From positions 9,284 to 73,283 of the IMG/VR virus record IMGVR_UViG_3300034104_002622: a stretch of DNA of 64,000 nt; one strand, given 5' to 3'. The position numbers were made by a program, and so were the translations under genes. Of the stretch, positions 36,532 through 48,621 are shown piece by piece. The stretch comes from a virus. The first letter of the stretch is position 1; every line of letters starts with the position of its first letter. The notes beneath the pieces are model-generated. The model saw only the letters and a list, made by a program, of their open reading frames with translations. It made no database searches and was not told the DNA's origin.

Positions 36532-36585
36532 TTCGAACAGTTCGATACACTGAACGCTGCGCATCAGTGATCTTAGCTGTTATCC
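36532..36585 (+). mobile_element. attC-like site 1 (short family, left end of array A)
   Basis: R'' TTCGAAC ... R' GTTATCC; imperfect inverted repeat. Confidence 0.75.
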
Positions 36586-36776
36586 AAAGAAATCAGCAGT
36601 TTGGCGGCGCGTTCCAGTTCAGGATTGAGCCAGTCCCTCTTTTGCGGTAGATCCGTAAGGATGTTGCGAATCACATAGAGCGCATCCGCTAGGCGGTCAG
36701 CGGCTTCATTCGATGGGCGATAGACTCCCGAGCTATTGTCTCGGAGCCATTTGATTAGTTCAGCGTTTGATTTCAT
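36573..36776 (-). CDS. Cassette ORF (LPQKRDWL module)
   Basis: Ends inside attC1; C-terminal half similar to 43645-43920. Confidence 0.65.
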   Translation of the reverse strand: MKSNAELIKWLRDNSSGVYRPSNEAADRLADALYVIRNILTDLPQKRDWLNPELERAAKLLISLDNS

Positions 36777-36789
36777 AATTTCGGAAGAT

Positions 36790-36880
36790 GGATAACAAGT
36801 TTGTAGAGGCGACGACGGGCAGCGTCCCCATTCAGGTTGGTAGTCCTTTCCCGTCGTCGCGCCTCACATCGGCGTTAGCG
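36790..36880 (+). mobile_element. attC-like site 2
   Basis: R'' GGATAAC (complement of the site 1 R') ... R' GTTAGCG; arms CGACGACGGG/CCCGTCGTCG. Confidence 0.85.
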
Positions 36881-37071
36881 GAAGATTTCAGAATGGCTTC
36901 CAGTTTCCATTTAACGTGATAGAACCAGTCCTGACTGATCCGCCCTGAGAAGGTTGCCATGTCTCCATCGTCCTCAACGTCCGAGTAGTCCAACTCGTCA
37001 AGAATCCCGAAGATCGCTAACAAGTCATGCGAGGCAACCTCTACAACGTCTTTTGGTGGATTCTGGCTCAT
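36832..37071 (-). CDS. Cassette ORF
   Basis: Starts in the attC3 loop and ends in attC2. Confidence 0.6.
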   Translation of the reverse strand: MSQNPPKDVVEVASHDLLAIFGILDELDYSDVEDDGDMATFSGRISQDWFYHVKWKLEAILKSSANADVRRDDGKGLPT

Positions 37072-37101
37072 GCGTTCGGTGCCTCCATATTTGCGTTAGG
37101 C
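37015..37101 (+). mobile_element. attC-like site 3
   Basis: R'' CGCTAAC ... R' GTTAGGC; GAGGCAACC/GGTGCCTC arms. Confidence 0.8.
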
Positions 37102-37358
37102 AGAATTAAATCTTCACGTTCGCGCCAGAATGCCAGTTGTTCAGACCAATCGCCGGCAAACATCTCCAACGGATATATTTCGTCGTTTTTCCGGTGCAGT
37201 TCCCTCCATGAGGATTCAAAATCCTCAAGGGATTTGAGTTGCTCAAATATAAACTCGTCTAACGTCAAAGAATGCCGAACAAGACGTGAGACGCAATCCC
37301 CACTAGTCTCCTGTTGGGTTAGGGTTTTCTGCTTCGGTGGTGATTTATCGTTTGGCAT
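37068..37358 (-). CDS. Cassette ORF
   Basis: Starts in the attC4 loop; stop overlaps the next ATG inside attC3. Confidence 0.65.
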   Translation of the reverse strand: MPNDKSPPKQKTLTQQETSGDCVSRLVRHSLTLDEFIFEQLKSLEDFESSWRELHRKNDEIYPLEMFAGDWSEQLAFWREREDLILPNANMEAPNA

Positions 37359-37405
37359 GGTCTTGGGGTATAAGTGGTGGGGATGCGTCTACATTGACGT
37401 TCGTA
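37274..37405 (+). mobile_element. attC-like site 4
   Basis: R'' GCCGAAC ... R' GTTCGTA; AGACGCAATCCCCAC/GTGGGGATGCGTCT arms. Confidence 0.85.
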
Positions 37406-37620
37406 GGTGAGAATTGCAGTTCATCCAGCATATCGCTTGGATTGTTATTTCCGTTTGCCATCGCTTCAATCCATCGCGCTGGGTCAATCGTTGCGGTGTG
37501 CTTCCATCCTTTATCTAAAAGTTTTGCTTCTACTTCTTGAAGCTCTTGGTCTGAGTAACATTTTATCATTCCATCAAGAGCGTAAATAAAAAGCATTCGA
37601 TCTAATCTAATTGTTTTCAT
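37345..37620 (-). CDS. Hypothetical protein ending in attC4
   Basis: Internal ATG (MKTIRLD); C-terminus encoded by the attC arm. Confidence 0.6.
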   Translation of the reverse strand: MKTIRLDRMLFIYALDGMIKCYSDQELQEVEAKLLDKGWKHTATIDPARWIEAMANGNNNPSDMLDELQFSPTNVNVDASPPLIPQDHAKR

Positions 37621-38471
37621 GTGTTTTGGGTTTTGCTGGTAAAACATTAAATATTTCAACTACTGGCTTTCCTGTCTCTGGATGACTAATCATTTTAAAC
37701 TCAACATCAAATTTTTTGATGCGTTCTCTAAAGTTATAAGCCATGTCAAAATCTGGAAACTCAACGTAAAGGTTAGAGTCGCGTTGGCTTACTTCTTCTT
37801 CAAGTCCAGAGTCTTCTAAAGCTCGCTGAAGGTAATAAGGTAAGTATTGGATGACACTCATTTTTTAAGTTGTTTTAGGTTTTCGATGAATTGCGCTGCT
37901 TCTGTTGCTGTTACCGTAATGTTAGAGCCGGGGTCGATAGTTGTTTGTGCTCCTCCTGTCCAAGAGTTGCCTATTCGTTTAGCTGGAGAAGGCATAGACA
38001 TTATCTTCCAATGGACAACTGAGCATTCTGATACTTTCCATGAATAGGGATTACCAGCTTGCCATTCATGATAGATGGCTGATGCCGACTGTTTAAGTGA
38101 CCATTCAACCACTTTATTTTCTTTAAGTAGTTCTTGGGTGTAACGCATAGCATTTAGCCAAAGCTTCTGCTTGGCTACTTGATGCAGCGATTCGATTAGA
38201 TTCACACTCATGACAATCAATCCTCTAGCCCCGAAGGGGCTTTGCGCGCTATTAGCATTGCGTCGGCGATTGAGTATGCTCCTTTGGCAACGTCGCAATT
38301 CCAGTTGTAAGACATTGCGGCTCTTCCGGACGCTACCATGATGGCAATAGCGATATTTTCACTTTGCATGGCTTGCCCAGCGAACCAGTCGCGCAGACTC
38401 ATGCCGCGTAATGCGTCGTCTCTTTCGTGCATCGGGAACGCTTGCCCGCCGTTGTCTTGTGGTGTGTTCAT
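37607..38471 (-). CDS. Three small early genes (37607-37861, 37858-38211, 38217-38471)
   Basis: 38217-38471 has the common phage GG.AFP...GMSLRDWFAGQA motif. Confidence 0.55.
38222..38241 (-). promoter_or_regulatory. C-GAA-G triloop hairpin element 2
   Basis: CCTCT-AGCCCC-GAA-GGGGCT. Confidence 0.5.
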
Positions 38472-38473
38472 TT

Positions 38474-39316
38474 TTATTTTGATTCACGTTTGTATTGTTC
38501 GCAAACATCTTTGAATCCACAGAATGAATTGCAGAATGTTTTTTCACCTTTGCGAATTTCTACTGTTTGATTTGGTTTTTTGAGTTCTTCTGCTTCTGAT
38601 AGCGTGTCGCATAGTTTTGAAGCTCGCTTGGCTCCGGGCGACATGATTGCGTAAACTGATGGCTTTTCCCATTGCTCTTCTGCTGTGCATGGGCGTGGTG
38701 AGCCATTATAAGCCTTCCAGTGGTCTTCTACGGTCTCTTTAATTAGCTTGGCTGCGAAGTCTTGATCATAGGGTTCTACGTAGATAGCAAAGGGTGTTTG
38801 CGGATACGTGGGGTCGAAGGTTGAGCGCATGTAGGACCAATCACGTTGAAGGTAAACAATTGAAACGTGTTCTACTTCATATCCATTTTTTTCTGCTAAC
38901 CATCCATTGATTTGAATTTGTTGGCGATGTTCTGGTTTCATTTTTTCCTGAAAACCAGCAGTGTTTTTGTAGTCGAACACTGTTTTATTTTCGTAGAAGT
39001 CTATTTGTCCTGAAATTGCAATGGTCTCTCCAAGATATGGATACTCATAGTGAAGTCGTTCTTCTGCTACTTCTCCGTTTTCAGTATCTACGTTATCTTC
39101 TAGGATGGAATGAATAGCTGTTCCCATCAAAGCATGGAACATAGTGTAGGGATTTTCTTGCTTTTCGTGGTTCTTTGCCAGCCATGTGCGTTGCGGAGGA
39201 GAGATTAACTGCGTGGTTGAAAATAAAGACTTTCCTTTTTCATACTTGTCTTTTGACAAAGCGCGAATGAACGGGCTAGGAAAGCTTTTGAGGTAGGATG
39301 CTGGTGTTTGTTTCAT
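38474..39316 (-). CDS. PD-(D/E)XK (Cas4/RecB-like) exonuclease
   Basis: GTAIHSILE...EER...SGQID...DYK...Q...C..FC.FK..C. Confidence 0.85.
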   Translation of the reverse strand: MKQTPASYLKSFPSPFIRALSKDKYEKGKSLFSTTQLISPPQRTWLAKNHEKQENPYTMFHALMGTAIHSILEDNVDTENGEVAEERLHYEYPYLGETIAISGQIDFYENKTVFDYKNTAGFQEKMKPEHRQQIQINGWLAEKNGYEVEHVSIVYLQRDWSYMRSTFDPTYPQTPFAIYVEPYDQDFAAKLIKETVEDHWKAYNGSPRPCTAEEQWEKPSVYAIMSPGAKRASKLCDTLSEAEELKKPNQTVEIRKGEKTFCNSFCGFKDVCEQYKRESK

Positions 39317-40001
39317 TGTTCGATAATAGTGTATTCGTTTTTTTCGAGCAGGAATCCCGGTAATGGACCGATGAAGATCAATTCTCTTTCTTTCCAGTCA
39401 GGAATATTCATTGCGTAGACTGCCGTATAAATTTTTTGTGGATCAAGCTCTAAGTCAGTTCCTAAGAGCTTGTAAGCTTTGTCTGGTTTTACTTTGAATT
39501 TTTTGGATCTCATTTATTTAATCTTGAGCTTCTATAATTACGTTCCAGATTGAGTCAGGTATCATATCTCTAACTGCTGTGTCTGCGTATCTTGCTAGAT
39601 TTCCAGCTTCTTTCCACTTTTTTGATTTGTAAAAAAAAAGGATTTTTCTTAGGATTTTTCTGTCTTCTGTATACATTTTTCTTATGCTTTGATCTTCATC
39701 ATGCTCAGCTTGGTGATTTTTAATGATGTGCTTAAAAAGTTTGATTGCGTTTTCATCTATTGTCATTTTGAATTCTTTTTTTATTTAGTCAGGCTAAATT
39801 TTAATCGAGCACACTGCGTCCACATAGCATTATAATGGTGTAATATGGCGGGAAATCATCTCCTGCACACATTTCTATTCCCTTCAGCAACCCAAATTCA
39901 ATGCAATTTGCGTTGATGCTGTTTTTTCTGAATCCTGAATTTTTAATCAGTTTTTCCAGTTTGTTTTTTATTTCTTCTTCTGTCGGTATGTTTTTATTCA
40001 T
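39313..40001 (-). CDS. Three small AT-rich hypothetical genes (39313-39513, 39518-39766, 39801-40001)
   Basis: Consecutive short leftward ORFs. Confidence 0.5.
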
Positions 40002-40048
40002 TGTGATTTTAGCGTTGACAAATTTTTTGATTGCTTTAGGTAGCGCTC

Positions 40049-40291
40049 ATGGAAAAGAGATTCAAGAAAGTAATCACTAACCCTGCGACTGGTCGCAAGA
40101 AAACTGTGAAGTTTGGACAGGCTGGCAAGGCTGCTGACGGTGGGGATCGCATCAGGCCGGGAACTTCTAAGGGTGACGCTTATTGCGCTCGCTCTGCTAA
40201 GATTAAAGGTGATTGGAAGTCCAATCCTAATTCGCCTAACAACCTTTCACGCCGGAAATGGAAGTGCAAAGGCAGCAAGTCTATGAAGTAA
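40049..40291 (+). CDS. Small basic protein common in aquatic phages
   Basis: K.VKFGQ...YCARS...SPN..SR.KW.C; TTGACA at 40015 upstream. Confidence 0.7.
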   Translation: MEKRFKKVITNPATGRKKTVKFGQAGKAADGGDRIRPGTSKGDAYCARSAKIKGDWKSNPNSPNNLSRRKWKCKGSKSMK

Positions 40292-40317
40292 TTGCTTTCT
40301 GAATCAGAAACAGCTTT

Positions 40318-40494
40318 ATGAAAAAAAAATCTACTGTCAACTCTTCTGGTAACTACACAAAGCCTACCATGAGAAAAGCCTTGTTTAATCGCATTAAAGC
40401 TGGCACGAAAGGCGGTGATCCCGGCGAGTGGAGCGCCAGAAAAGCTCAGCTTTTAGCTTCTGAGTATAAGAAAAAAGGCGGAGGCTACAAATAA
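40318..40494 (+). CDS. Small basic protein (58 aa; DUF5872-like N-terminal part), not in the ORF track
   Basis: MKKKSTVNSSGNYTKPTMRK...GG.PGEWSARKAQLLASEYKKKGGGYK. Confidence 0.7.
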   Translation: MKKKSTVNSSGNYTKPTMRKALFNRIKAGTKGGDPGEWSARKAQLLASEYKKKGGGYK

Positions 40495-40527
40495 CAACTC
40501 TCATTAAACGTAAACTAAAATAAAAAT

Positions 40528-40689
40528 ATGAAAGCAAAACCAAAGAAAGCAATGGTGTCTCCTAAGTCTAAAAAAGCAATGTCCAAGCCAATGTTAAAAG
40601 CAGCGGCTTCGAAAAAGATGGCCAAGAAAATGCCTAAGAGTATGGCAATGGGCATGAAGATGGGAATGCCTAGCAATATGGGATATTAA
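40528..40689 (+). CDS. Lys/Met-rich peptide (53 aa), not in the ORF track
   Basis: MKAKPKKAMVSPKSKKAMSKPMLKAAASKKMAKKMPKSMAMGMKMGMPSNMGY; A-rich leader. Confidence 0.55.
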   Translation: MKAKPKKAMVSPKSKKAMSKPMLKAAASKKMAKKMPKSMAMGMKMGMPSNMGY

Positions 40690-40704
40690 TCCTATTTTGA
40701 TTGA

Positions 40705-40935
40705 ATGAAAGCACCTCAACAATCCTTGAAAGATTGGACAGCCCAAAAATGGCGAACCTCTGATGGTAAGCCAAGCAAGGGCAAAAAGAGGTATTTGCCT
40801 GATTCTGCGTGGAAGTCTTTGACGGCTTCTGAAAAGGCTTCCACGAATCGGGCAAAGGCTAAGGGTAATGCTCAAGGCAAGCAGTTTGTTAAGCAACCTA
40901 AGTCGATAGCTAGAAAAACATCAGCACACAGATGA
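40705..40935 (+). CDS. Small basic protein (DUF5872-like C-terminal part)
   Basis: QQSLKDWT.QKWRT.DGK...RYLP..AW..L. Confidence 0.7.
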   Translation: MKAPQQSLKDWTAQKWRTSDGKPSKGKKRYLPDSAWKSLTASEKASTNRAKAKGNAQGKQFVKQPKSIARKTSAHR

Positions 40936-41564
40936 GAAACGCCAACCTACCAAAGTGTCGAGTTTACGTCCGTTGTGATGCCTTTGGTGGCAGTGAGACA
41001 GAGTTTGAACCTGCGTGGTTAGTCAGCGTCCGAGCGATGCGTAATCGTCCATTTTGTTTTCAAGTTTGGGTAGATAAATACGCTGCTTGCTTTGACAAGA
41101 TTCCGCCACAGTGCATCTACCATTACGAGCCGGATGGGAATCAAGCTAACTTACCGCTTCACAAGGTGCAAATGTGGGAGTGTTTATCTGGCAGCATTGA
41201 AGTCTGGCAGAAGAGTCAGCTTTGCGATGTGCCGATGCTTGTCAACATGGGTAAGGGTTTTGCTCCGATGACTGGGCATTACTGGTTTACGATTGATTTT
41301 TTACCCGAACATCAATGTGCAGGAATACTGGACATTGGTGACGTTGAGTTGCTGGAAGAGCACAAAGAGGGAAACGTGGTAAAGTTGTCGAACGGACAGA
41401 TTGCCATCTACCCAAATAATAGGCTTAAATGGTTGCCTATAAGCCTTGTGAAAGAAGGCGCGGCAGAACGCATCCCTAGCTGGGAGGTTGCCACAAACGA
41501 GCAATGGGACGACTGGTGGCAAGACTCATCAGAAATCCTCGGAGACTCCAAGTGGGCTTACTAA
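40932..41564 (+). CDS. Conserved phage hypothetical protein (210 aa)
   Basis: ANLP...Q.W.C...G.Y.FTID...EHK...NGQ.A.YPNNR pattern. Confidence 0.7.
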   Translation: MRNANLPKCRVYVRCDAFGGSETEFEPAWLVSVRAMRNRPFCFQVWVDKYAACFDKIPPQCIYHYEPDGNQANLPLHKVQMWECLSGSIEVWQKSQLCDVPMLVNMGKGFAPMTGHYWFTIDFLPEHQCAGILDIGDVELLEEHKEGNVVKLSNGQIAIYPNNRLKWLPISLVKEGAAERIPSWEVATNEQWDDWWQDSSEILGDSKWAY

Positions 41565-41760
41565 TATTTAATTGTTTAGCTTTAATTTGTAGGTCTTTTG
41601 TTGTTTTTTCCATGTGCTCAAGAAGAATGTCTTGCATCCAATATGGAGGACAGCGTCTTCCTGACCTCCAATCGTAAGCTGTTGGCATAGAGCATCCAAT
41701 TTTTTCAGCAATTTGCTTAGCTGTGTATTTTGATATTTTTTGTTTGAATGTTTTTTTCAT
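41476..41760 (-). CDS. Small helix-turn-helix protein
   Basis: AKQIAEKIGCSMPTAYDWRSG (XRE/Cro-like). Confidence 0.65.
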   Translation of the reverse strand: MKKTFKQKISKYTAKQIAEKIGCSMPTAYDWRSGRRCPPYWMQDILLEHMEKTTKDLQIKAKQLNISKPTWSLRGFLMSLATSRPIARLWQPPS

Positions 41761-41768
41761 GTTTTTAA

Positions 41769-42938
41769 TTACAGGTCAATTTCCAAATGAATGCTCCATG
41801 CTTTAACAAGTTCGTTCATTAGAAATTGCTCAAAACGTCTTGATTCGTCTGAATAGCCAATTGTATGACAATGCTCTTCTAGCAGCGTGGTAATCAAAAA
41901 AAACAATCCTTGGTCAAAAGAACGTTCTGTTAAGTGGATAATTTCTGAATGAACAAAAGCGATGTTTAAGTTATCTTCATTTGAGATATATTTGATTTTT
42001 GCTTTTACGTCGTATCCCATTTTTGCCAAAAACTCTTTAGCCTTGGCTAACATCCGTTCGTGGCGCTCAGGCATTTCAATTTGATTGAACTCAGCGTCAG
42101 GCAATTGGCTGCGTATTTGGTGTTGGAGATTACTGATTAGTTTGGTGGGGGATTCTTCCCAGATTTCAGCTACAACTTCTTTCATTGTTACTCCCCACGT
42201 GCCGTAATATCCACGGTCAGCTTCCCAATTAGGTTTTTTCGCTGTAAATAAGTGTTTTAAGATAGACTTATTCGTTAGTTTTTCGATGCCTCTTTCAATA
42301 GACCGATAGACATCGTAGATATTAAAGATAGTGCGATCTTCTGTAAGTTTTACTTCATCTAGCAATTCGTAAGAATACATCGCTTCTTCGATGAAGCCTA
42401 CCTTAACTCCACGATAAAATATTTCGCCATCTCCTTTGTAAATGTTGATTTTGTCGGAAGAGGCAATAGGGACGCGAGCACCTACGAAAATGTTTTCGTG
42501 ATTGTCATAGCACTCTGCAAATTTTTTGTGAGTGATATAGATAGTGCTGTCTTGTATTGAAACTGGGTGGCGACCCCATTCTCCTCCTTCGTCTATTGTA
42601 TTCGAAACAAGCTCACGGTAGGCTCCTTCTAGCTCCCACTGCTTTCCAAGTTCTGTTGTAAATCCAAGCTCACGATCATTGCAAGTAATTACATCAAATG
42701 TTTTTCCACGGAATTCTTTAGTTTCTTTTCCAAATTCATATATCCCATTGGGAGTGATGATGCTGACTGTTGCGTTTTCACGAATGAGAACAGCTAAGGC
42801 TAATTTCATTCCGGTTCCAAAGAAGCCAATTGGAGAATTATTATCTGGTTTAGCATTAATTCCCATAATACTCCAGCTTTCAGGGTGAAGAATGCCAGGA
42901 GTGGTAAGCATTATTGTATTTGAACAATCTGTATTCAT
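41769..42938 (-). CDS. GHKL-like ATPase N-terminus plus zincin-like C-terminus
   Basis: IGFFGTGMK; C-terminal TLLEEHCH...DESR.F. Confidence 0.6.
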   Translation of the reverse strand: MNTDCSNTIMLTTPGILHPESWSIMGINAKPDNNSPIGFFGTGMKLALAVLIRENATVSIITPNGIYEFGKETKEFRGKTFDVITCNDRELGFTTELGKQWELEGAYRELVSNTIDEGGEWGRHPVSIQDSTIYITHKKFAECYDNHENIFVGARVPIASSDKINIYKGDGEIFYRGVKVGFIEEAMYSYELLDEVKLTEDRTIFNIYDVYRSIERGIEKLTNKSILKHLFTAKKPNWEADRGYYGTWGVTMKEVVAEIWEESPTKLISNLQHQIRSQLPDAEFNQIEMPERHERMLAKAKEFLAKMGYDVKAKIKYISNEDNLNIAFVHSEIIHLTERSFDQGLFFLITTLLEEHCHTIGYSDESRRFEQFLMNELVKAWSIHLEIDL

Positions 42939-42970
42939 TGTTTATTTGTTTATTTGTTGTTACAAATCAA

Positions 42971-42988
42971 CCTCAAGCCCGAAGGGCT
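42971..42988 (-). promoter_or_regulatory. C-GAA-G triloop hairpin element 3
   Basis: CCTCA-AGCCC-GAA-GGGCT, intergenic. Confidence 0.55.
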
Positions 42989-43023
42989 TTAAGTTTATTG
43001 ATTTATGATTTATTTGTAATTGT

Positions 43024-43155
43024 TCAGTATCTCTTTGAGCAATTAGAGCAAACGCTCTGTCCGTGCTTTGTGAAGATCAAGGGTGTTTTGCAGTCGCGGC
43101 AAAAGCCGAAGAACTTGCAGGGTTTTCTGAGGTAGTAGCGTAGTTTGCATCTCAT
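43024..43155 (-). CDS. 43-aa Zn-ribbon peptide, copy 1 (not in the ORF track)
   Basis: MRCKLRYYLRKPCKFFGFCRDCKTPLIFTKHGQSVCSNCSKRY; paralogue at 47540-47671. Confidence 0.7.
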   Translation of the reverse strand: MRCKLRYYLRKPCKFFGFCRDCKTPLIFTKHGQSVCSNCSKRY

Positions 43156-43169
43156 GGTGTTTGTTGTTG

Positions 43170-43223
43170 TTCAAACAGGTTGATGCACTGAACGCTTTGC
43201 GTCACCGATCTTGGCTGTTCGGA
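43170..43223 (+). mobile_element. attC-like site 5 (short family, left end of array B)
   Basis: R'' TTCAAAC ... R' GTTCGGA; similar to sites 1 and 14. Confidence 0.75.
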
Positions 43224-43429
43224 ATAAAAACTCGCATCCAGAATGCGACGGGCTGAGACGATGTTTGTCCGCGCCACCCGAATCTTTTGCTCCATGATCC
43301 TTTGTCCCACCAACCGTCAGCGCGGATGATGACTACTTGTTCACCGTCATTCGGCAATGTTGAATCGGCAGAAAAGATTTCCGAACAATTCGTGAGAGGC
43401 AACGCCTCGGAGTTTTCTTGTGTATTCAT
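43202..43429 (-). CDS. Cassette ORF (DUF551-like)
   Basis: LP...VVI...W...W...V.FWM; starts in attC6 and ends in attC5. Confidence 0.6.
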   Translation of the reverse strand: MNTQENSEALPLTNCSEIFSADSTLPNDGEQVVIIRADGWWDKGSWSKRFGWRGQTSSQPVAFWMRVFIPNSQDR

Positions 43430-43465
43430 AGTCGTTAAGGGCGTGCCTCCACAGAGGCGTTCGAC
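43380..43465 (+). mobile_element. attC-like site 6
   Basis: TCCGAAC-AATTC-GTG[A]GAGG ... CCTCCAC-AGAGGC-GTTCGAC: canonical 5/8 and 7/6 spacing with an extrahelical base. Confidence 0.92.
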
Positions 43466-43624
43466 TTACTCATAGAAGGCCAGCTTGATCTTTTGTTGTG
43501 TCACATCCAGACTCAGCAATGACCAAGAGTGCCCGGTGTTGAAGTTTTGGACATCAATGACTGAGATTCTCCAGCCACCGTCAGGCCGGATGTAGAGTTT
43601 GAAGAGTTGTATTTCGATTTCCAT
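43466..43624 (-). CDS. Cassette ORF (52 aa)
   Basis: MEIEIQ...; lies wholly between attC6 and attC7. Confidence 0.5.
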   Translation of the reverse strand: MEIEIQLFKLYIRPDGGWRISVIDVQNFNTGHSWSLLSLDVTQQKIKLAFYE

Positions 43625-43644
43625 GTTAGTGTGGTGTGTTGTCG

Positions 43645-43920
43645 TTACAAAGTCGAACAAGGCGCGGCAGATAACCGCTCTGGGCTATCTGTCGTATTTG
43701 CCACGTCCTGGGTTCGCGGTATCTGCGCTTGGGCGTTAGCCTGAAGAATAAATTTTGCCTCACGCTCAAGCTGCGGGTCGAGCCAATCCCTTTTTTGCGG
43801 AAGGTCATTGATGATTCGCCGCAAGACCGATTCGACCGATCCAGCAAATGCAATCATGTCTTCGATGGCTCGCGGCTTAGGGATGCGGCTTCGTATTTCG
43901 TCTCGTATTGGTGTATTCAT
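43645..43920 (-). CDS. Cassette ORF (LPQKRDWL module)
   Basis: Reads through the whole of attC7. Confidence 0.6.
   Translation of the reverse strand: MNTPIRDEIRSRIPKPRAIEDMIAFAGSVESVLRRIINDLPQKRDWLDPQLEREAKFILQANAQAQIPRTQDVANTTDSPERLSAAPCSTL
43652..43741 (+). mobile_element. attC-like site 7
   Basis: R'' GTCGAAC ... R' GTTAGCC; GCG[G]CAGATAACCGC/GCGGTATCTGCGC arms. Confidence 0.9.
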
Positions 43921-43930
43921 AATTCAAAGA

Positions 43931-44021
43931 GGCTAACAAGTGGATGCTGGCAACGGCGGGAGTTGCCCTGTTGGTTTATTCGGAGTCCAGCGCCCGCCGC
44001 GCCAGATCCTTGTCGTTCGGC
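43931..44021 (+). mobile_element. attC-like site 8
   Basis: GGCTAAC-AAGTG-GAT[G]CTGG ... CCAGATC-CTTGTC-GTTCGGC. Confidence 0.92.
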
Positions 44022-44251
44022 TTAGAAAGCATGAGTAGCGTCCATGAGATTGTAACCAGCACCAAGATACCCAACGGGAGTCCGATCTTAGCGGTATTGC
44101 CTGAGTCCAGACGGGTCAGCACCGATGAGAGAAGAAAGCCCATCTGGAAGGTTACAATCAGTGTCGTGATTAGCCACGCTTTGAAACGTGCCGAACAAAG
44201 CGTAGATGGCGATTCCGAGGAATCGCTCTGTTCAAGTTTTGGGGTAGTCAT
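43976..44251 (-). CDS. Cassette ORF, two-TM membrane protein
   Basis: Two hydrophobic stretches; starts in attC9 and ends in attC8. Confidence 0.6.
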   Translation of the reverse strand: MTTPKLEQSDSSESPSTLCSARFKAWLITTLIVTFQMGFLLSSVLTRLDSGNTAKIGLPLGILVLVTISWTLLMLSKPNDKDLARRALDSE

Positions 44252-44313
44252 AATGTTTGATTGATGTTGAGAGAGTCACTGAGCCTCGGAACCGCCATTA
44301 CTCGACGTTCTGG
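44190..44313 (+). mobile_element. attC-like site 9
   Basis: R'' GCCGAAC ... R' GTTCTGG; ATGGCGATTCCGAGG/CCTCGGAACCGCCAT arms. Confidence 0.88.
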
Positions 44314-44552
44314 CCATACAATGCAGACAAGATGGCATCGACGCGCCCTTGCGCTGGATCGGTTCCTTTGCGCCGGTGTTCGTGCAGATCCTCGTCCTCC
44401 ATGAATGGGACTTTCACGATGACTATCAACTCGCCCGCTTCGTCTCGGAGCCATCCCCAATCAGCATGTTTGGATCGGTCATGGGAGAGACGCCCAACCC
44501 AGCCAGAACAAGTCGTGAGAGGCAACGCCTCGGAGTTTGTTGGTGTATTCAT
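44298..44552 (-). CDS. Cassette ORF
   Basis: ATG (MNTPTNSEALPL) in the attC10 loop; ends in attC9. Confidence 0.6.
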   Translation of the reverse strand: MNTPTNSEALPLTTCSGWVGRLSHDRSKHADWGWLRDEAGELIVIVKVPFMEDEDLHEHRRKGTDPAQGRVDAILSALYGQNVE

Positions 44553-44588
44553 AGTCGTTATTGGCGTGCCTCCACAAAGGCGTTGTAG
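44503..44588 (+). mobile_element. attC-like site 10 (close paralogue of site 6)
   Basis: CCAGAAC-AAGTC-GTG[A]GAGG ... CCTCCAC-AAAGGC-GTTGTAG. Confidence 0.92.
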
Positions 44589-44598
44589 CAAAGAATGC

Positions 44599-44904
44599 TC
44601 ATTTGCGGCGATCTCCGAGGATTCCAAGCATGGAGGTTGTGCCGCGTTGCCGTGGCATCAAGACCCGCTCTCCGGGTTCGCCGCGATCCCCTCCGCATTG
44701 GGCGTGTGTCCCATCCTCGAATCGGGCAAGGGTCATTACATCCGTTCCCACGTATCCCCAATTCGTGCCCTCTTTGACGACCTTCCTGACGATTGCGGGT
44801 TCGTCCACGTAGTAAGGCATTACAGACATTGCCTCCAGCCCGAATCCGAAGACTGCTATTGCGGATGCGCAGAGCGCGGCGATTCCAAGGTGTTCAAGTT
44901 TCAT
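44599..44904 (-). CDS. Cassette ORF with N-terminal TM/signal segment
   Basis: LGIAALCASAIAVFGFG; between attC10 and attC11. Confidence 0.6.
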   Translation of the reverse strand: MKLEHLGIAALCASAIAVFGFGLEAMSVMPYYVDEPAIVRKVVKEGTNWGYVGTDVMTLARFEDGTHAQCGGDRGEPGERVLMPRQRGTTSMLGILGDRRK

Positions 44905-44937
44905 ATTTTATCGGAGTTTGAGATTGGTTCGGAAGAG

Positions 44938-45037
44938 CTACAACAAGCGGATCGTGGCAACCCGCTCCCGCCCGCCATTTTAGATTTGATCGGGCTTCAC
45001 TGGTGCGGGATCGGTTGCCACATCCTCGGCGTTCTCG
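44938..45037 (+). mobile_element. attC-like site 11
   Basis: CTACAAC-AAGCG-GAT[C]GTGG ... CCACATC-CTCGGC-GTTCTCG. Confidence 0.92.
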
Positions 45038-45222
45038 GATAACTTGTTGAGGGCGCGGCGGTGGTGCTTGTAGCGGTTGTCGTGGTGGCATGATCCATCG
45101 GAGCAAGTGAAGGTCACGGGGTCGCCTACTCTTTCGAGGTGGTAACACGCCCACACTGAATGCCAGCTTCCGAGAACAAGGCGTCGCACGCCGACGCCGC
45201 GAAGTTTTGTGATGATTTTCAT
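44980..45222 (-). CDS. Cassette ORF
   Basis: Starts in the attC12 loop and ends in attC11. Confidence 0.55.
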   Translation of the reverse strand: MKIITKLRGVGVRRLVLGSWHSVWACYHLERVGDPVTFTCSDGSCHHDNRYKHHRRALNKLSENAEDVATDPAPVKPDQI

Positions 45223-45258
45223 GGTTTATTTTCGGCGCGGGTGGACTCGACGTTCGCA
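45171..45258 (+). mobile_element. attC-like site 12
   Basis: CGAGAAC-AAGGC-GTC[G]CAC ... GTGGAC-TCGAC-GTTCGCA. Confidence 0.85.
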
Positions 45259-45542
45259 GAAATAAGGCCCGCGACGAGTTCGGGGACTTTCAGAGCCAGA
45301 ACGTCTTCCTGTATGCTCCCATCGTCCGATGTCTTTGCTGCCTCGCCGAACATCTCCCCTATCTGGGTGACGATTCCGTGATAGAACGCCTCGTTCCGTG
45401 AGAACTGAGCGGCAGAGTCCATCCATGCGGCAATCCGCTTTGCCACGGCTTCCGCAAGGACAACGTCCATTTCAATGTGCTTGGTTTCATCGTCGCACCA
45501 GCATTGGGCGGCGATCTGTCTTGCTTCTTCGATGTATGTCAT
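45219..45542 (-). CDS. Cassette ORF
   Basis: MTYIEEARQIAAQCWCD...; stop overlaps the next ATG inside attC12. Confidence 0.65.
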   Translation of the reverse strand: MTYIEEARQIAAQCWCDDETKHIEMDVVLAEAVAKRIAAWMDSAAQFSRNEAFYHGIVTQIGEMFGEAAKTSDDGSIQEDVLALKVPELVAGLISANVESTRAENKP

Positions 45543-45554
45543 AAGATAAAATTC

Positions 45555-45653
45555 TGCGAACAAGGCGGTCCACGGAACGGCTACCCGTTGGACGCTTTGG
45601 GTGAAGGTTGAGTCTCAGCCACGGGTAGCCGCGCGTGGCCTTGTTCGTTCGGG
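45555..45653 (+). mobile_element. attC-like site 13
   Basis: R'' TGCGAAC ... R' GTTCGGG; CGGCTACCCGT/ACGGGTAGCCG arms. Confidence 0.88.
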
Positions 45654-47169
45654 GTTAGGGATTGGAGGGCATCACAAATCATGGATTGCAGTGCCTGACG
45701 TGCAAACAGAGCTTGATCTTCGCCTCCGCATTCTCGGCAACTTGTCCCATCCGCTATTAGACGCAGTTTCTCCGCCAGCCTGTCGCGCTGCTCGGTGACT
45801 GTCTTATTTTCCATCATCAGGGATAAAGCGGTTGTCTCTATATTTGCATATTTGTTTTTTAGAATATCCAGTTCTTCTGCAATCTGATACCAAGATTTAC
45901 CGCTAAGGCATAGAGCCTTCCATCTTTCGTTTGTGGTTGGTGTATTGTTCATGCTTCCTTCGGGGTTAGGGATTGGAGGGTTGTTTCGGCAAGGTCTTTT
46001 GCTGATTGTGGGTCTTCGTGAATCAAATTGAAAACACTACAAAGATTATCCGCCAGCCTGTCCCGCTGTGCGGTGACGGTGGCGAGTTCCTCCTGTGCCT
46101 TGGCGAATCCGTAGTCCATAAACTCGCGGGTTCGGATTGTCTCCTCCCGTGCCTCGTCCCGCTCGCGTTCTAACCTTCTGGCGAAGTCTATGCTAACTCT
46201 ACCTGTCCCAAACTGGGCTTCGTCGGTTTCTGGTGTGTCGCTCATTTCGCGCCCTCCAATGCTTTTTCTGCTTTGATTTGTGATCTATCCCATCCAACTC
46301 CGTAAAGGTCGCCGTGAACTTGCCTAATGTATCGCCAGCCAGATAGCATATCGCGCAAAGCCTCCCGCGCCTTGTCCCGCTCGCGTTGCAATGTCTTAGC
46401 ATGATCCCAGATAGTTCCGTTGGGGTCGCGGAGTTCGCAACCAAGGTCTTTGTTTTGTTGGATGTATTTTGCCTTCCATTCGTCGCGTTCGCGTTTGAGT
46501 TCTGCGTTGGTTTCCTTTAGGAATTGCTTGTATGCTTTTATGTCCTCTATGTTGGTTGCTTTTAACGTAGATTCGTCCGTCTCAGGTGTGTCAGTTTTCA
46601 TGGCTTCTGGGTTAGGGATTGGAGGGCTTGCTGGGCTTTTTCAAATGCTTCTGGCATGGATACTGGCATAAAATCAACGCTGTCAATACAGTTGCAAGAT
46701 TCTATCAAGTCTTGTAGTGCCTCCGCCAGCCTGTCCCGCTGTGCGGTGATGGTGGAGAGTTGGTGTTTGAGTCTTGTTATGATTTGACTAATGTAACATG
46801 CGACTGCAATGATTGTAATGGCTGGGGCAATTATGTCTAAATAGTTCATGGCTTATGGGTTAGGGATTGGAGGGCTTCGGTTGCAACAAATCTAGCTCCG
46901 TGACCATTATCGCATTGGAGGTCTGAGTAATCGAATGTCGTAATCATTTGCAACGCTTCCACCAGCCTGTCGCGCTCGTCTAATGTCTGTGCCAGTTTCT
47001 TGCCCATGCGCTCGTTGGCATCGTTTAGTTCTCGGCAAACACTCGACATCCTCCATTGCTCCCGTGCCTCGTCCCGCTCGCGCCTTGCTTCTTTTAAGAG
47101 TTCCCATGCAGCCAGTTCACATTGAAGGTCGTTCTCAGCATCCGTCTTAGGTGTTGGTTGTGTATTCAT
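45581..47169 (-). CDS. Five tandem paralogous coiled-coil genes (45581-45952, 45949-46245, 46242-46601, 46598-46849, 46846-47169)
   Basis: Shared TPETD, RERDEARE, QRDRLA and LQSLT modules; all ATGA-coupled. Confidence 0.7.
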
Positions 47170-47528
47170 GGTTCTTTGTTCGGGTTGGTTGTCCACTTTC
47201 TAATCGTGCGAAAGAAAGCTTCTGCGCGTTGGGCGGCGGTTGCGGTAATGCACATATCAAAATCCATTTGTGCTTTTGTTACTCCAGCTTCTCGGCGGAT
47301 CGCTTTTTTGATTTGTTGCGTGTATTTCTTTGGGAGATTCGGGTCGCCATAAAGCATTTTCTCGGCTTCGTGCATCGCGTTTAAGTCGTTGCAGTAGTCG
47401 GGAAGCTGGTGAACGTCACGCGATAGACGCGCTTGTGGCGGTCGCCAGTATCGAATCTGTGAATTTCCCACGTGGGAAATCCATCCGCACGACTCAGCGA
47501 TGGCGATTCTTTGCGCTTTTGGTTTCAT
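47166..47528 (-). CDS. ABA-sandwich-like phage protein, copy 1
   Basis: RIAIAESCGW...LPDYCNDLNAMHEAEK...ATAAQRAEAF. Confidence 0.6.
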   Translation of the reverse strand: MKPKAQRIAIAESCGWISHVGNSQIRYWRPPQARLSRDVHQLPDYCNDLNAMHEAEKMLYGDPNLPKKYTQQIKKAIRREAGVTKAQMDFDMCITATAAQRAEAFFRTIRKWTTNPNKEP

Positions 47529-47539
47529 ATTTTTGTAGT

Positions 47540-47671
47540 TCAATATCTCTTTGAGCATCTAGGGCAGATGCCCTGTCCGTGTTTTGTGAACATCAAGGTC
47601 GCCCTGCAATCGCGGCAGAAACCGAGAAACTTGCAGAGTTTTCCGAGGTAGTATCGTAGTTTGTATTTCAT
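47540..47671 (-). CDS. 43-aa Zn-ribbon peptide, copy 2 (not in the ORF track)
   Basis: MKYKLRYYLGKLCKFLGFCRDCRATLMFTKHGQGICPRCSKRY. Confidence 0.7.
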   Translation of the reverse strand: MKYKLRYYLGKLCKFLGFCRDCRATLMFTKHGQGICPRCSKRY

Positions 47672-47689
47672 TGTGATAATTGAATTATA

Positions 47690-47741
47690 ATCGAACAGGT
47701 TGATGCGGTGAACGAAGCGTCACCGATCTTGGCTGTTCTCG
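47690..47741 (+). mobile_element. attC-like site 14 (short family, left end of array C)
   Basis: ATCGAAC-AGGTT-GAT[G]CGGT-GAAC...GTC-ACCGATC-TTGGCT-GTTCTCG. Confidence 0.85.
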
Positions 47742-48025
47742 GAAGAAATTTCCGCAGCCATCTTGTCCATGACAGCTTCAGCCGCCACATGCCCGCGATG
47801 TTTCAGCAGTTGCCGGATGCGGTGCTTTAGCTTGTTTTCGCTGCGTTCGAGCGCCTTGGCGTGTTCCTCCATCTTTTCGAGGTTGTGCCAGTCTTGCCAG
47901 TTGTTCCGCTTTATCTCTTCGGAGAGAGCGGCGGTCTTGGGAGTTTCGCGGAGTCGCTCGGACAAAGAAGACCGAGAACAAGTCGCCGCACGCAACGGGC
48001 TATCACTTTTCAATTTCTTTTTCAT
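47720..48025 (-). CDS. Cassette ORF
   Basis: ATG (MKKKLKSD) in the attC15 loop; ends in attC14 with NSQDR, identical to the end of 43202-43429. Confidence 0.6.
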   Translation of the reverse strand: MKKKLKSDSPLRAATCSRSSLSERLRETPKTAALSEEIKRNNWQDWHNLEKMEEHAKALERSENKLKHRIRQLLKHRGHVAAEAVMDKMAAEISSENSQDR

Positions 48026-48066
48026 GGTCGTTTCAGGTTCGCCCGTGCGTGGGCTAGGCGTTAGCA
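47973..48066 (+). mobile_element. attC-like site 15
   Basis: R'' CGAGAAC ... R' GTTAGCA; CACGCAACGGGC/GCCCGTGCGTG arms. Confidence 0.88.
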
Positions 48067-48329
48067 AGATGAAGTTTCACGTAGTCCATCGCCGCCCGTT
48101 TCGCTTTGTCCTCGGAGAGAGGTTCGTCGTTGCAGGAATTGTAAAGCGGCACACTTTTGCCTCTTGCCACCCAATACCAACCTTGCTTCCCGCTGTGTCG
48201 GCGAGAATACTCGTAGGCGTTGGCGTATTCCTCCCCTCCCATGTTGAGCGAGTGTCCGGGATGACCGCTGCATACACCCGCAAGCCCTGTCGGACGCGGA
48301 TTCTTTTTCCATCTCAATGCCTGTTTCAT
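48054..48329 (-). CDS. Cassette ORF
   Basis: MKQALRWKK...GWYWVA; ends in attC15. Confidence 0.6.
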   Translation of the reverse strand: MKQALRWKKNPRPTGLAGVCSGHPGHSLNMGGEEYANAYEYSRRHSGKQGWYWVARGKSVPLYNSCNDEPLSEDKAKRAAMDYVKLHLANA

Positions 48330-48360
48330 ATTTGTTTGGAGTTTTGGGGTTATTCGGTTT

Positions 48361-48445
48361 CGCTAACAAATCGCCGTATCCAACGGCGGCCAGATCTTTA
48401 TTTTAGTCGGCGTCCTTTCCGCCGTGGATAGGTTCGGCGTACACT
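48361..48445 (+). mobile_element. attC-like site 16 (R' degenerate)
   Basis: R'' CGCTAAC; TATCCAACGGCGG/CCGCCGTGGATA arms; GTA in place of GTT at 48439. Confidence 0.65.
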
Positions 48446-48599: not shown

Positions 48600-48621
48600 T
48601 TGCTGAATTTTTTTATTGAAA

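What the first reader, a model, noticed from the sequence alone, without database searches (positions are those of the whole stretch)
36573..48329. Cassette genes are inverted and frame-locked to the crossover: all 13 ORFs crossing R' read GTT as an in-frame Asn codon
Seen: spacer lengths and the extra base in L'' define + as the attC top strand, yet every cassette gene is on -, the opposite of normal cassettes. Six start inside their own attC loop (37071, 37358, 43429, 44251, 44552, 45222; also 48025). Thirteen run across the R' box of the neighbouring attC, all in the same frame (AAC = N): LDNS, SANAD, PNAN, PTNVN, PNSQDR, QANAQ, KPNDK, GQNVE, SENAE, SANVE, TPNEQ, SENSQDR, LANA. At R'', where no exchange occurs, all three frames are used (CS, LLA, LVR/LVL), which serves as an internal control. 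Some stops overlap the next start (ATGA) inside the loop (37068-37071, 45219-45222). Inference: any excision or insertion at G|TT keeps the reading frame, swaps C-terminal tails and preserves translational coupling in the leftward operon. Caveat: at GTTA sites one alternative frame is excluded anyway by a TAA.
Basis: partly seen in the sequence, partly recalled or inferred. Interest (0 to 1): 0.92.

Follow-up and report, generated by a model that had tools for sequence, protein, structure and literature searches.

The report
Backward-reading integron cassettes in a phage
A lake-water phage carries three arrays of integron recombination sites whose small genes all run backwards through them in one shared reading frame, so each time a cassette moves its protein gets a new tail and stop codon from the neighbouring site.

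Summary
The window is a complete 73 kb phage with no integrase. It has 15 attC sites in three arrays. Their geometry matches the aadA1 attC of plasmid R100 when read on the + strand, yet every credible gene lies on the – (bottom) strand. Thirteen of 15 sites are crossed at R' by a long ORF with AAC as an Asn codon, and two genes stop 4 and 17 nt before R'. By a rule that ignores frame, 34 sites in seven phage loci gave 26 frame 0, 0 frame 1, 0 frame 2, 7 own stop and 1 none. At R'' all phases are used. The same attC type and the same rule occur in Verrucomicrobiota chromosomal integrons, but not in a Vibrio integron. A 96–98% identical phage has different arrays with breakpoints at the R' GTT. 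Three cassette protein families keep a conserved body up to the Asn and then carry different tails. Best reading: the attC acts as an adaptor between genes. It supplies tail and stop, and often start and leader. A single entry frame keeps cassettes shuffled by a host IntI interchangeable. Expression, translational coupling and the reason for frame 0 are untested. New variant of a known kind (phage CALIN).

The parts
36532..36585 (+). short attC s0 (46 nt from AAC to GTT), left end of array 1
   Evidence: Homologous to sites d and s2 (repeat families D12, D14, D16).
36790..36880 (+). attC a
   Evidence: score 12.5
37015..37101 (+). attC b. Its loop holds the ATGA stop/start overlap at 37068-37071.
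37274..37405 (+). attC c, right end of array 1. The sequence after its GTT is the same in sister phage G001.
43170..43223 (+). short attC d, left end of array 2
   Evidence: In G001 the equivalent site is followed by window cassette 36874-37066.
43380..43465 (+). attC e, 91% identical to attC i
   Evidence: (D5). A variant with an e-to-i deletion of 1123 nt is in runs X8 and X11.
43652..43741 (+). attC f
43931..44021 (+). attC g
   Evidence: A contig of run X8 diverges after 44017.
44190..44313 (+). attC h
   Evidence: score 13
44503..44588 (+). attC i
   Evidence: Contigs of run X20 diverge at 44582/44584.
44938..45037 (+). attC j
   Evidence: An X20 contig piece ends at 45037.
45171..45258 (+). 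attC k. Its loop holds the ATGA overlap at 45219-45222.
45555..45653 (+). attC l, last site of array 2
47690..47741 (+). short attC s2, left end of array 3
47973..48066 (+). attC m. Near-identical attCs occur in other viral contigs (L018, L176).
48361..48445 (+). possible degenerate attC n: TAACAAA and a stem, but no clean R'
   Evidence: read by eye; not scored by any scan
36573..36776 (-). cassette gene, 67 aa. Crosses R' of s0 in frame 0 (..LDNS*). Paralogue of 43645..43920.
36832..37071 (-). cassette B gene, 79 aa. Starts in the loop of attC b and crosses R' of attC a (..SSAN + tail).
37068..37358 (-). cassette gene, 96 aa. Starts in the loop of attC c and crosses R' of attC b.
37345..37647 (-). 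backbone gene that reads into attC c in frame 0. Its tail differs in G001.
   Evidence: 86% identity over aa 1-88, then different
43024..43155 (-). 43 aa zinc-ribbon-like gene (CxxC...CxxC) next to short attC d. Its paralogue is at 47540..47671.
   Evidence: (D1)
43202..43429 (-). cassette gene, 75 aa. Starts in the loop of attC e; ends ..PNSQDR*.
43466..43624 (-). cassette gene with its own stop 4 nt before R' of attC e
43645..43920 (-). cassette gene, 91 aa. Reads through the whole of attC f (29 aa tail).
43976..44251 (-). cassette gene, 91 aa. Starts in the loop of attC h and crosses R' of attC g.
44298..44552 (-). cassette gene, 84 aa. Starts in the loop of attC i and crosses R' of attC h.
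44599..44904 (-). cassette gene, 101 aa, with its own stop 17 nt before R' of attC i
44980..45222 (-). cassette gene, 80 aa. Starts in the loop of attC k and crosses R' of attC j.
45219..45542 (-). cassette gene, 107 aa, crosses R' of attC k. Belongs to a large family of unknown function.
45581..47196 (-). five abutting small genes without attC between them; four share repeats. The first (45581..45952) crosses R' of attC l in frame 0.
   Evidence: (D3, D4, D8)
47166..47558 (-). 130 aa gene, paralogue of backbone gene 49104..49559
47540..47671 (-). second copy of the 43 aa zinc-ribbon-like gene, next to short attC s2
47720..48025 (-). cassette gene, 101 aa. Starts in the loop of attC m; ends ..SSENSQDR*.
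48054..48329 (-). cassette gene, 91 aa, crosses R' of attC m (..LANA*)

Best explanation
WHAT IT IS. These are three clusters of genuine integron attC sites without an integrase (CALIN type) in a probably virulent lake phage. The cassettes carry their genes on the attC bottom strand, the same direction as the surrounding phage genes.

HOW IT WORKS. Read on that strand, each attC acts as an adaptor between genes.
- The R'-L' arm gives the incoming ORF an Asn (AAC, split AA|C by the crossover), a short meaningless tail and a stop.
- In about half of the cassettes the loop and the L''-R'' arm give the next ORF its ATG and a leader peptide.
- Most cassette ORFs therefore have no stop of their own.
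- A host IntI exchanges cassettes at G|TT in R', so the tail and stop are replaced at every move.
- Because all ORFs enter in one frame, every attC of the pool needs a stop in that frame only, and any cassette can sit in front of any attC.
- At R'', which is never separated from its gene, each attC type keeps its own phase.

SHOWN: attC identity and polarity, gene strand, the single frame at R', the several phases at R'', breakpoints at R', and swapped tails.

INFERRED: that IntI is the recombinase, that the frame rule is kept by selection for interchangeability, that translation into the hairpin helps the next gene, and that the – strand is the one expressed.
For: 1. Geometry equals the aadA1 attC.
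2. The same attC type forms at least 28 sites beside an intI scoring over the curated cut-off in a Verrucomicrobiae MAG, with canonical polarity.
3. The phage has no IntI and no tyrosine recombinase.
4. Frames at R' by a rule that ignores frame. Phage loci, 34 sites: 26 frame 0, 0 frame 1, 0 frame 2, 7 own stop, 1 none. Bacterial loci, 52 sites: 13 / 3 / 4 / 17 / 15. At least four of the seven frame 1 or 2 cases lie on cassettes whose longest ORF is a top-strand gene.
5. Second pattern set, 24 sites: 11 frame 0, 3 frame 1, 8 own stop, 2 none. On inspection, one of the frame 1 picks and two of the own-stop picks have frame-0 ORFs of 84, 111 and 70 codons.
6. Controls.
   - R'' phases of 28 phage genes that start in their own attC are 10 / 16 / 2.
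   - Top-strand ORFs cross R'' in all frames: bacterial 10 / 6 / 6, phage 4 / 8 / 3.
   - In the Vibrio integron long top-strand ORFs end at the TAA in R'' at 8 of 27 sites, and the bottom strand shows no preference.
7. Frame 0 is closed inside the attC at 32 of 34 phage sites, against 23 and 12 for frames 1 and 2.
8. Tails.
   - Cassette B: 12 homologues, N66 invariant, 11 tails that differ from the window's.
   - 45219..45542: the three closest relatives share ..LISAN and then differ.
   - 47720..48025: 13 of 18 homologues share ..EIS..N and then differ, and the leaders differ too.
9. Mobility.
   - G001 has 96-98% identical backbone and other arrays, with junctions at GTT of c, d and a.
   - Metagenome contigs diverge at 44017, 44582/44584 and 45037.
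Against: - No RNA or protein data, so direction and translation are untested.
- Only 3 of 15 junctions have overlapping stop and start, so coupling by overlap is not general.
- Seven of 34 phage cassettes have their own stop, so the borrowed stop is not obligatory.
- In the Verrucomicrobiota arrays frame 2 is also closed early (34 of 52). 'Only frame with a stop' therefore cannot be the whole reason.
- A conserved T-rich motif lies 6-12 nt before AAC, also where the gene has already ended (site i). That points to a further constraint at DNA or RNA level which could set the register.
- The left end of array 1 in G001 breaks at R'' of s0, not at R'.
- The e-to-i deletion variant has its junction in the left arm, as homologous recombination would give.
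- The sites were collected with sequence patterns taken from this window, so the sample covers one attC family.
Confidence: 0.6

Rival explanations
1. The single frame is a by-product of how these cassettes are made or inherited, not of selection for interchangeability. A conserved boundary module (T-rich motif, R' box and attC) is attached to gene ends in a fixed register. The frame is then simply inherited or set by that motif's own function.
For: - The ATTTCTTCC-like motif sits at a fixed distance before AAC in most of the 33 sites aligned. It is also present at site i, where the gene has already stopped.
- A similar purine-rich motif lies before R'' on the top strand (family D9).
- Within one integron all cassettes share near-identical attCs and leader peptides although the gene bodies differ.
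Against: - The gene bodies are unrelated (one search found one paralogous pair among the 13).
- The motif contains no stop in any frame, by my reading.
- No mechanism of cassette formation is known that is aware of reading frame (recalled).
- R'' uses several phases although it belongs to the same module.
Confidence: 0.22
2. The hairpins are phage regulatory or RNA elements that only resemble attC. The array differences arise by homologous recombination between repeats, without any integron integrase.
For: - No integrase in the phage.
- The e-to-i deletion variant has its junction inside 26 nt shared in the left arm.
- The left boundary of array 1 in G001 lies at R''.
Against: - Spacing of 5 and 6 nt and bulges at about positions 12 and 19 on the R'' arm, as in the aadA1 attC.
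- The same site type lies in arrays beside intI in bacteria.
- Unrelated attCs that share only GTT are joined exactly there.
- Phage attCs have been recombined by IntI1 in the laboratory (PMC9892861, section 3.4 read).
Confidence: 0.08
3. The cassettes are ordinary. The real genes are on the + (top) strand and the – strand ORFs are antisense artefacts of G+C-rich DNA, so the frame rule has no meaning.
For: Long + strand ORFs exist (44257..45042, 261 aa; 47763..48431, 222 aa). The longest-ORF rule picks them for several cassettes.
Against: - Those + ORFs run across two or three attC sites and are rich in Arg, Ser and Cys.
- Three – strand ORFs have 12, 358 and 21 database homologues with conserved cores (alignments).
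- The neighbouring backbone genes are all on –.
- Spurious ORFs in the controls use all frames.
- No + strand ORF was searched for homologues.
Confidence: 0.03
4. Chance, or a bias of ORF calling.
For: At 5 of 15 sites frame 1 is closed by the TAA in the R' GTTA. Some sites are related by descent (e and i; s0, d and s2).
Against: - P(13 of 13) is about 3e-6 at p0 = 0.38.
- 26 of 26 crossing ORFs are in frame 0 in seven phage loci.
- The result was repeated with a second pattern and in bacteria.
- Frames 1 and 2 are open across R' at 10 and 15 of 15 sites.
Confidence: 0.02

Closest known systems
CALINs (clusters of attC sites lacking an integrase) in phage genomes, Qi et al. 2023, PMC9892861 (abstract and section 3.4 read)
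   Same: attC arrays without intI in virulent phages. Cassettes of unknown function. A host integrase is presumed to act, and phage attCs were recombined by IntI1 in the laboratory.
   Different: That paper reports 17 CALINs with at least two sites each and describes same-direction cassettes as the typical structure. In the section I read it says nothing on which attC strand codes, on reading frames at R', or on swapped tails. Its supplementary tables could not be seen. Here there are 15 sites in three arrays, all genes are on the bottom strand, and one frame is used.
ORF-11 of attI1, as reviewed in PMC8876359 (passages read)
   Same: A short ORF crosses the integron crossover and takes its stop (TAG in GTTAG) from the R' core of whichever cassette is inserted. 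Its translation helps the next gene.
   Different: It is a single ORF at attI on the top strand of class 1 integrons. Here every cassette gene does this on the bottom strand at attC, and the attC also supplies starts.
Reverse-oriented cassettes with their own promoters in Vibrio chromosomal integrons (toxin-antitoxin cassettes; recalled, and mentioned in PMC8876359 section 2.3)
   Same: Genes lie opposite to the attC top strand inside an integron array.
   Different: Those are a minority, self-contained with their own promoter and stop. The Vibrio array examined here showed no frame rule on the bottom strand.
Sedentary chromosomal integron of a Verrucomicrobiae MAG (G002:C8, loci L082, L064, L049)
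   Same: Same attC type. Bottom-strand genes start in the loop and cross R' with AAC as a codon. The same gene appears with different tails in two arrays.
   Different: It has intI and mixes top-strand and bottom-strand genes. The phage holds bottom-strand genes only.
attG route of cassette insertion (bioRxiv 10.1101/2022.09.11.507474, passages read)
   Same: It offers a way for a cassette to enter a genome without att sites, at 5'-GWT-3', on either strand.
   Different: It was shown in E. coli with IntI1. Whether the phage arrays were seeded this way is only a guess.

Membership tests
integron attC site | Inverse core R'' (..AAC) and core R' (GTT....) at the two ends of an imperfect palindrome | tested here: met
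   All 15 sites begin with AACA(A/G) and end with GTT(A/C/G).
integron attC site | Asymmetric stem: 5 nt spacer and bulged L'' on one arm, 6 nt spacer and unbulged L' on the other (extrahelical bases near L''; PMC5027507, passages read) | tested here: met
   Ten of 15 sites meet the strict layout on +. Of the 13 sites found by the looser scan, 11 have bulges on the left arm only. The layout is the same as the aadA1 attC.
integron attC site | Recombined by an integron integrase at G|TT of R', bottom strand preferred | not testable with these tools
   Indirect evidence only: sequence breakpoints at the R' GTT between the window and G001 and in metagenome contigs.
integron attC site | The same site type occurs in cassette arrays next to intI | tested here: met
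   G002:C8 has intI at 176651-177613 (357 bits, cut-off 265). At least 28 sites start at 178496, with the top strand pointing away from intI.
CALIN | Two or more attC sites close together with no integron integrase nearby | tested here: met
   The arrays have 4, 9 and 2 sites. There is no TIGR02249 or PF00589 match in the whole 73,283 bp record.
complete integron | intI, attI and a Pc promoter beside the array | tested here: not met
   No intI. attI and Pc were not looked for. The short 44-46 nt attC stands where attI would be.
canonical gene cassette | One promoterless ORF on the top strand, upstream of its attC | tested here: not met
   All credible ORFs are on the bottom strand and overlap one or two attC sites.

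The most novel reading that the evidence does not exclude
In this attC lineage (Verrucomicrobiota integrons and their lake phages) the recombination site is also a coding adaptor with a fixed grammar. On the bottom strand it gives Asn, tail and stop to the ORF that enters, and ATG and leader to the ORF that leaves. Cassettes can therefore be bare ORF bodies without their own stop or start. One entry frame shared across the lineage keeps every body compatible with every attC. Phages use this to swap accessory genes inside their own transcription units with the host's integrase.
Probability: 0.45. Interest if true: 0.85.

Novelty: new variant of a known kind. Interest (0 to 1): 0.78.

Why it matters
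Integron cassettes are taught as self-contained ORFs on the attC top strand, driven by Pc. Here a whole set of cassettes, in phages and in bacterial chromosomal integrons, codes on the other strand and shares a reading-frame rule exactly at the point of exchange. If that rule is maintained by selection, three things follow.

- The recombination site is also a translation module, and cassette shuffling edits protein ends.
- Annotation pipelines that expect top-strand ORFs will miscall these cassettes.
- Phages have a way to re-assort accessory genes, possibly counter-defence genes, with the host's integrase.

The idea is directly testable with reporter constructs and recombination assays.

Tried and rejected
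FUNCTION OF THE CASSETTE GENES
- Pfam on 20 cassette ORFs gave no family above cut-off.
- PHROGs on 20 gave one weak Rz-like match at E 8e-4, not used.
- So the function of the cassette genes stays unknown.

PHAGE BACKBONE
- Pfam and PHROGs on large backbone ORFs gave primase/helicase, an exonuclease, an RNA ligase and two families of unknown function (phrog_1221, phrog_8203).

SCANS THAT DID NOT WORK
- My first attC scans were useless: one too strict, and one by folding energy that flooded the output.
- MAFFT alignments of the sites misaligned the 3' arm, so no covariance model was built.
- The longest-ORF-on-either-strand rule picks junk + strand ORFs in the phage. It was replaced by the bottom-strand rule.
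- The sigma-70 promoter and terminator scan was uninformative: 12 promoter-like sites against 18 expected.

EXPRESSION AND POPULATION DATA
- No RNA holder was listed among 24 runs, so expression could not be tested.
- Many joints and loose ends in 45770-47400 come from the repeated gene family and were not interpreted.

SECOND VIRAL PATTERN
- It returned 80 listed loci of 85 matching stretches. The third pattern returned 8.
- Of the 87 scanned (G001's own locus left out), only 19 held a site scoring 11 or more, and several of those are hairpins inside long genes.

LITERATURE
- Searches on bottom-strand or inverted cassettes, translational coupling, and frames at attC found no description of the frame rule. 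Supplements were not available.

NOT AVAILABLE
- Earlier findings were not open.

Full report
WHAT THE WINDOW IS

The window is bases 9284-73283 of an IMG/VR virus record of 73,283 bp that CheckV rates 100% complete. It encodes a primase/helicase, an exonuclease, an RNA ligase and a 5353 aa ORF. It has no match to the integron integrase model TIGR02249 and none to the tyrosine recombinase family PF00589. Near-identical sequence is held by 24 lake-water or freshwater metagenome runs from 24 studies. Four of them may be the source of the assembly.

CHECK OF THE OBSERVATION: THE SITES

Fifteen hairpin sites lie on the + strand in three groups: 36536-36581 to 37278-37401, 43174-43219 to 45559-45649, and 47694-47737 to 47977-48062. 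Each begins with AACA(A/G) and ends with GTT. Each group starts on the left with a short site of 44-46 nt (s0, d, s2). The three short sites are homologous to one another.

I tested polarity in two ways.

- A strict pattern asked for AAC, 5 nt, an 8 nt L'' with one bulged base, then a 7 nt L', 6 nt and GTT, with 7 of 7 pairs. Ten of the 15 sites match on + and 3 on –.
- A looser dynamic-programming scan of the whole window found 13 of the 15 sites on + at score 8 or more. Eleven of them scored 10.5 or more, against two places elsewhere at that score. In 11 of the 13 the bulges are on the 5' arm of + only.

As a control I read the aadA1 attC of plasmid R100 on the aadA1 coding strand. It shows AAC, 5 nt, a 3 bp + bulge + 4 bp L'', then a 7 nt L', 6 nt and GTT. 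This is the same layout as the phage sites on +. Published descriptions place the extrahelical bases near L'' and the conserved AAC of the bottom strand in R' (PMC5027507, passages read). So + is the top strand. In a canonical cassette the gene would be on +, to the left of its attC.

CHECK OF THE OBSERVATION: THE GENES

The genes are on –. The – strand ORFs have ordinary protein composition. The + strand ORFs are rich in Arg, Ser and Cys, and the longest run across two or three attC sites.

Three – strand ORFs were searched in the large protein collection. They have 12, 358 and 21 homologues with conserved cores. I did not search any + strand ORF. Pfam and PHROGs give no function for 20 cassette ORFs.

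FRAMES AT R' IN THE WINDOW

For each site I measured, on the – strand, the open codons upstream and downstream of the AAC in all three frames.

- At 13 of 15 sites the frame in which AAC is a codon has 62-129 open codons upstream.
- At e and i the gene stops 4 and 17 nt before R', in the other two frames.
It is open across R' at the other ten. Frame 2 is open across R' at all fifteen. Nothing trivial forbids those frames.

Seven genes start inside their own attC and six more start within about 40 nt after R''. The two ATGA overlaps are present in the sequence.

The R'' phases of the seven genes that start inside their attC are 2, 0, 1, 1, 1, 0, 1.

IS IT MORE THAN CHANCE, AND DOES IT GENERALISE?

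Baseline. In long – strand backbone ORFs, AAC is a codon in 122 of 323 occurrences. That gives about 3e-6 for 13 of 13. Two of the 13 bodies are paralogues.

More loci. I collected more loci with a degenerate pattern that holds no coding information (6 viral contigs; 54 genome contigs). I then applied a rule that does not look at frame: the longest bottom-strand ATG ORF of at least 40 aa that overlaps the first 300 nt of the cassette.

- Phage loci (window, sister phage G001, L013, L014, L017, L018), 34 sites: 26 frame 0, 0 frame 1, 0 frame 2, 7 with their own stop, 1 none.
- Bacterial arrays, 52 sites: 13 frame 0, 3 frame 1, 4 frame 2, 17 own stop, 15 none. At least four of the seven frame 1 or 2 cases lie on cassettes whose longest ORF is a top-strand gene. 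They therefore serve as examples of what spurious ORFs look like.
- A second and third pattern gave 24 sites scoring 11 or more in 19 of 87 loci. The rule gave 11 frame 0, 3 frame 1, 8 own stop and 2 none.
  - Several of these sites are hairpins inside long genes.
  - I inspected four of these sites. The three whose call was not frame 0 (L087, scored frame 1; L176 at 2322 and 11490, scored own stop) have frame-0 ORFs of 84, 111 and 70 codons.
  - The frame 1 pick in L087 is the downstream gene extended to an upstream ATG.

Controls.

- Phage genes that start in their own attC leave R'' in phases 10 / 16 / 2 (28 genes).
- Top-strand ORFs cross R'' in all frames: bacterial arrays 10 / 6 / 6, phage loci 4 / 8 / 3.
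- In a Vibrio chromosomal integron (27 sites beside an intI of 506 bits), long top-strand ORFs end at the TAA inside R'' at 8 sites. The four bottom-strand ORFs of 60 or more open codons are split 2 / 1 / 1.

The rule is therefore specific to the bottom strand, to R', and to this attC family.

ARE THESE REAL, MOBILE CASSETTES?

The same attC type occurs in Verrucomicrobiota. In one MAG an intI of 357 bits (cut-off 265) at G002:C8:176651-177613 on the – strand is followed from 178496 by at least 28 sites, all on +. That is the canonical layout. That array, and a second array in the same MAG (L049, 14 sites), mix top-strand genes with bottom-strand genes. The bottom-strand genes start in the attC loop and cross the neighbouring R' with AAC as a codon.

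The sister phage G001 (70,641 bp, also rated complete) is 96-98% identical in the backbone but has entirely different arrays.

- Window cassette 36874-37066 lies in G001 directly after the short attC of array 2, joined at GTT.
- The right boundary of array 1 is the same after GTT and different before it.
- The left boundary of array 1 in G001 breaks at R'' of s0 instead. The simple model does not explain this.

Contigs of four lake runs were laid on 42900-48700.

- Pieces end or diverge at 44017 (R' of g), at 44582/44584 (R' of i) and at 45037 (4 nt past R' of j). In run X20 cassette j appears as a unit with other neighbours on both sides.
- A variant that skips 43390-44512 occurs in runs X8 and X11. 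Its junction lies within 26 nt shared by the left arms of e and i. That fits homologous recombination better than an IntI event.

SAME BODY, DIFFERENT TAIL

- Cassette B protein (36832..37071): 12 homologues are conserved through ..WKLEAILKSSAN, with N66 invariant. After it there are 11 tails that differ from the window's, and one sequence is identical to the window's.
- Protein 45219..45542: I aligned the best 70 of 120 listed (358 hits). The three closest relatives share ..LISAN and then differ. Ten more distant members of the 70 have N there followed by unrelated tails. Many others end naturally a few residues earlier or later.
- Protein 47720..48025: I aligned 18 of 21 hits, leaving out one identical and two weak ones. 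Thirteen share ..EIS..N and then differ. Five have another C-terminal domain that again ends in EN plus varied tails. The attC-encoded leaders differ too, but all that reach R'' read C-S there.
- The backbone gene 37345..37647 and its G001 counterpart are 86% identical over residues 1-88 and differ after R'. Two genes shared by L049 and L082 also have different tails.

HOW IT MOST LIKELY WORKS

On the bottom strand each attC serves as an adaptor between genes. Its R'-L' arm supplies Asn, a short tail and a stop. Its loop and L''-R'' arm often supply the ATG and a leader. The crossover splits the Asn codon as AA|C, and C is invariant, so the codon is rebuilt at every exchange.

Precise recombination would keep any frame. 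What one shared frame achieves is that each attC needs a stop in one frame only. Frame 0 is indeed closed inside the attC at 32 of 34 phage sites, against 23 and 12 for frames 1 and 2. The longest runs in frames 1 and 2 in the window (86-120 codons) read on into the next gene.

R'' is never separated from its gene, so each attC type can keep its own phase there. That matches the data.

The phage has no integrase, so a host IntI must act. The arrays could have been seeded by insertion at a genomic GWT site on either strand (bioRxiv 10.1101/2022.09.11.507474, passages read). After that, only cassettes coding on the strand the phage transcribes would be useful. These last steps are inference.

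WHAT SPEAKS AGAINST THIS, OR REMAINS OPEN

- Direction of expression and translation are untested.
- Only 3 of 15 junctions have overlapping stop and start.
- Seven of 34 cassettes have their own stop.
- In the bacterial arrays frame 2 is closed early at 34 of 52 sites.
- A T-rich motif lies 6-12 nt before AAC whether or not it is coding. It could be what sets the register. I cannot say why frame 0 rather than another frame was fixed.

COMPARISON WITH WHAT IS KNOWN

CALINs in phages are published, and phage attCs were recombined by IntI1 (PMC9892861). An ORF that crosses the crossover and borrows its stop from the inserted cassette is known for ORF-11 at attI1 (PMC8876359). Reverse-oriented cassettes are known as self-contained exceptions.

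I found no description of the following in six literature searches, with supplements closed:

- cassette sets that code on the bottom strand;
- a single frame at R';
- attC-encoded tails and leaders.

VERDICT

The coupling claim and the selective reason are not shown. This is a new variant of a known kind.

Noticed in passing
window 43024-43155 and 47540-47671 (- strand); repeat 43022-43166 / 47538-47682: Two copies (81% identical DNA) of a 43 aa zinc-ribbon-like gene (CxxC...CxxC). Each lies directly beside a short 44-46 nt attC at the left end of an array, in the place where intI and attI sit in an integron.
   Followed up: partly
window, 6-12 nt right of each R' GTT and left of several R'' boxes (for example 36780-36799, 37005-37024, 44928-44947): A purine-rich top-strand motif (CGGAAGA / AGAAT; bottom strand ATTTCTTCC). 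It is conserved next to R' in most cassettes, also where no gene covers it, and it recurs before R''. Function unknown.
   Followed up: partly
window 45581-47196: Five abutting small genes with no attC between them. Four share repeated segments (GGGTTAGGGATTGGAGGG at the gene junctions and a 40 nt internal repeat). This stretch is highly variable between G001 and the lake metagenome contigs.
   Followed up: partly
window 43390-44512: A variant lacking these 1123 nt (between the 91% identical attCs e and i) is carried by long contigs in two runs of different years.
   Followed up: yes
window 7560-23621 (+): A single ORF of 5353 aa, about a quarter of the genome. Not analysed.
   Followed up: no
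L082 2173-8114 (G002:C8, about 179173-185113): Two identical copies of a roughly 3 kb element lie inside consecutive cassettes of the bacterial integron. Each carries a 373 aa ORF and a partial match (about half the model) to the integron-integrase family.
   Followed up: no
L082 and L049 (Verrucomicrobiae MAG): Several top-strand genes read into their own attC and end with the same attC-encoded peptide (..NKSEMATPRKPSD). Several unrelated bottom-strand genes share an attC-encoded leader (..ASSASPSPTC..).
   Followed up: partly
window 48361-48445: A possible sixteenth, degenerate attC (TAACAAA and a stem, but no clean GTT at the expected place), before the backbone resumes at about 48612.
   Followed up: no
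L012 reverse complement 4322-4450 (G001): In G001 the homology with the window at the left end of array 1 stops right after the AAC of R'' of site s0, not at R'.
   Followed up: partly
window 40049-40935 (+): Four small + strand ORFs sit as an island inside a long run of – strand genes, between arrays 1 and 2. The two that I read are lysine-rich.
   Followed up: no
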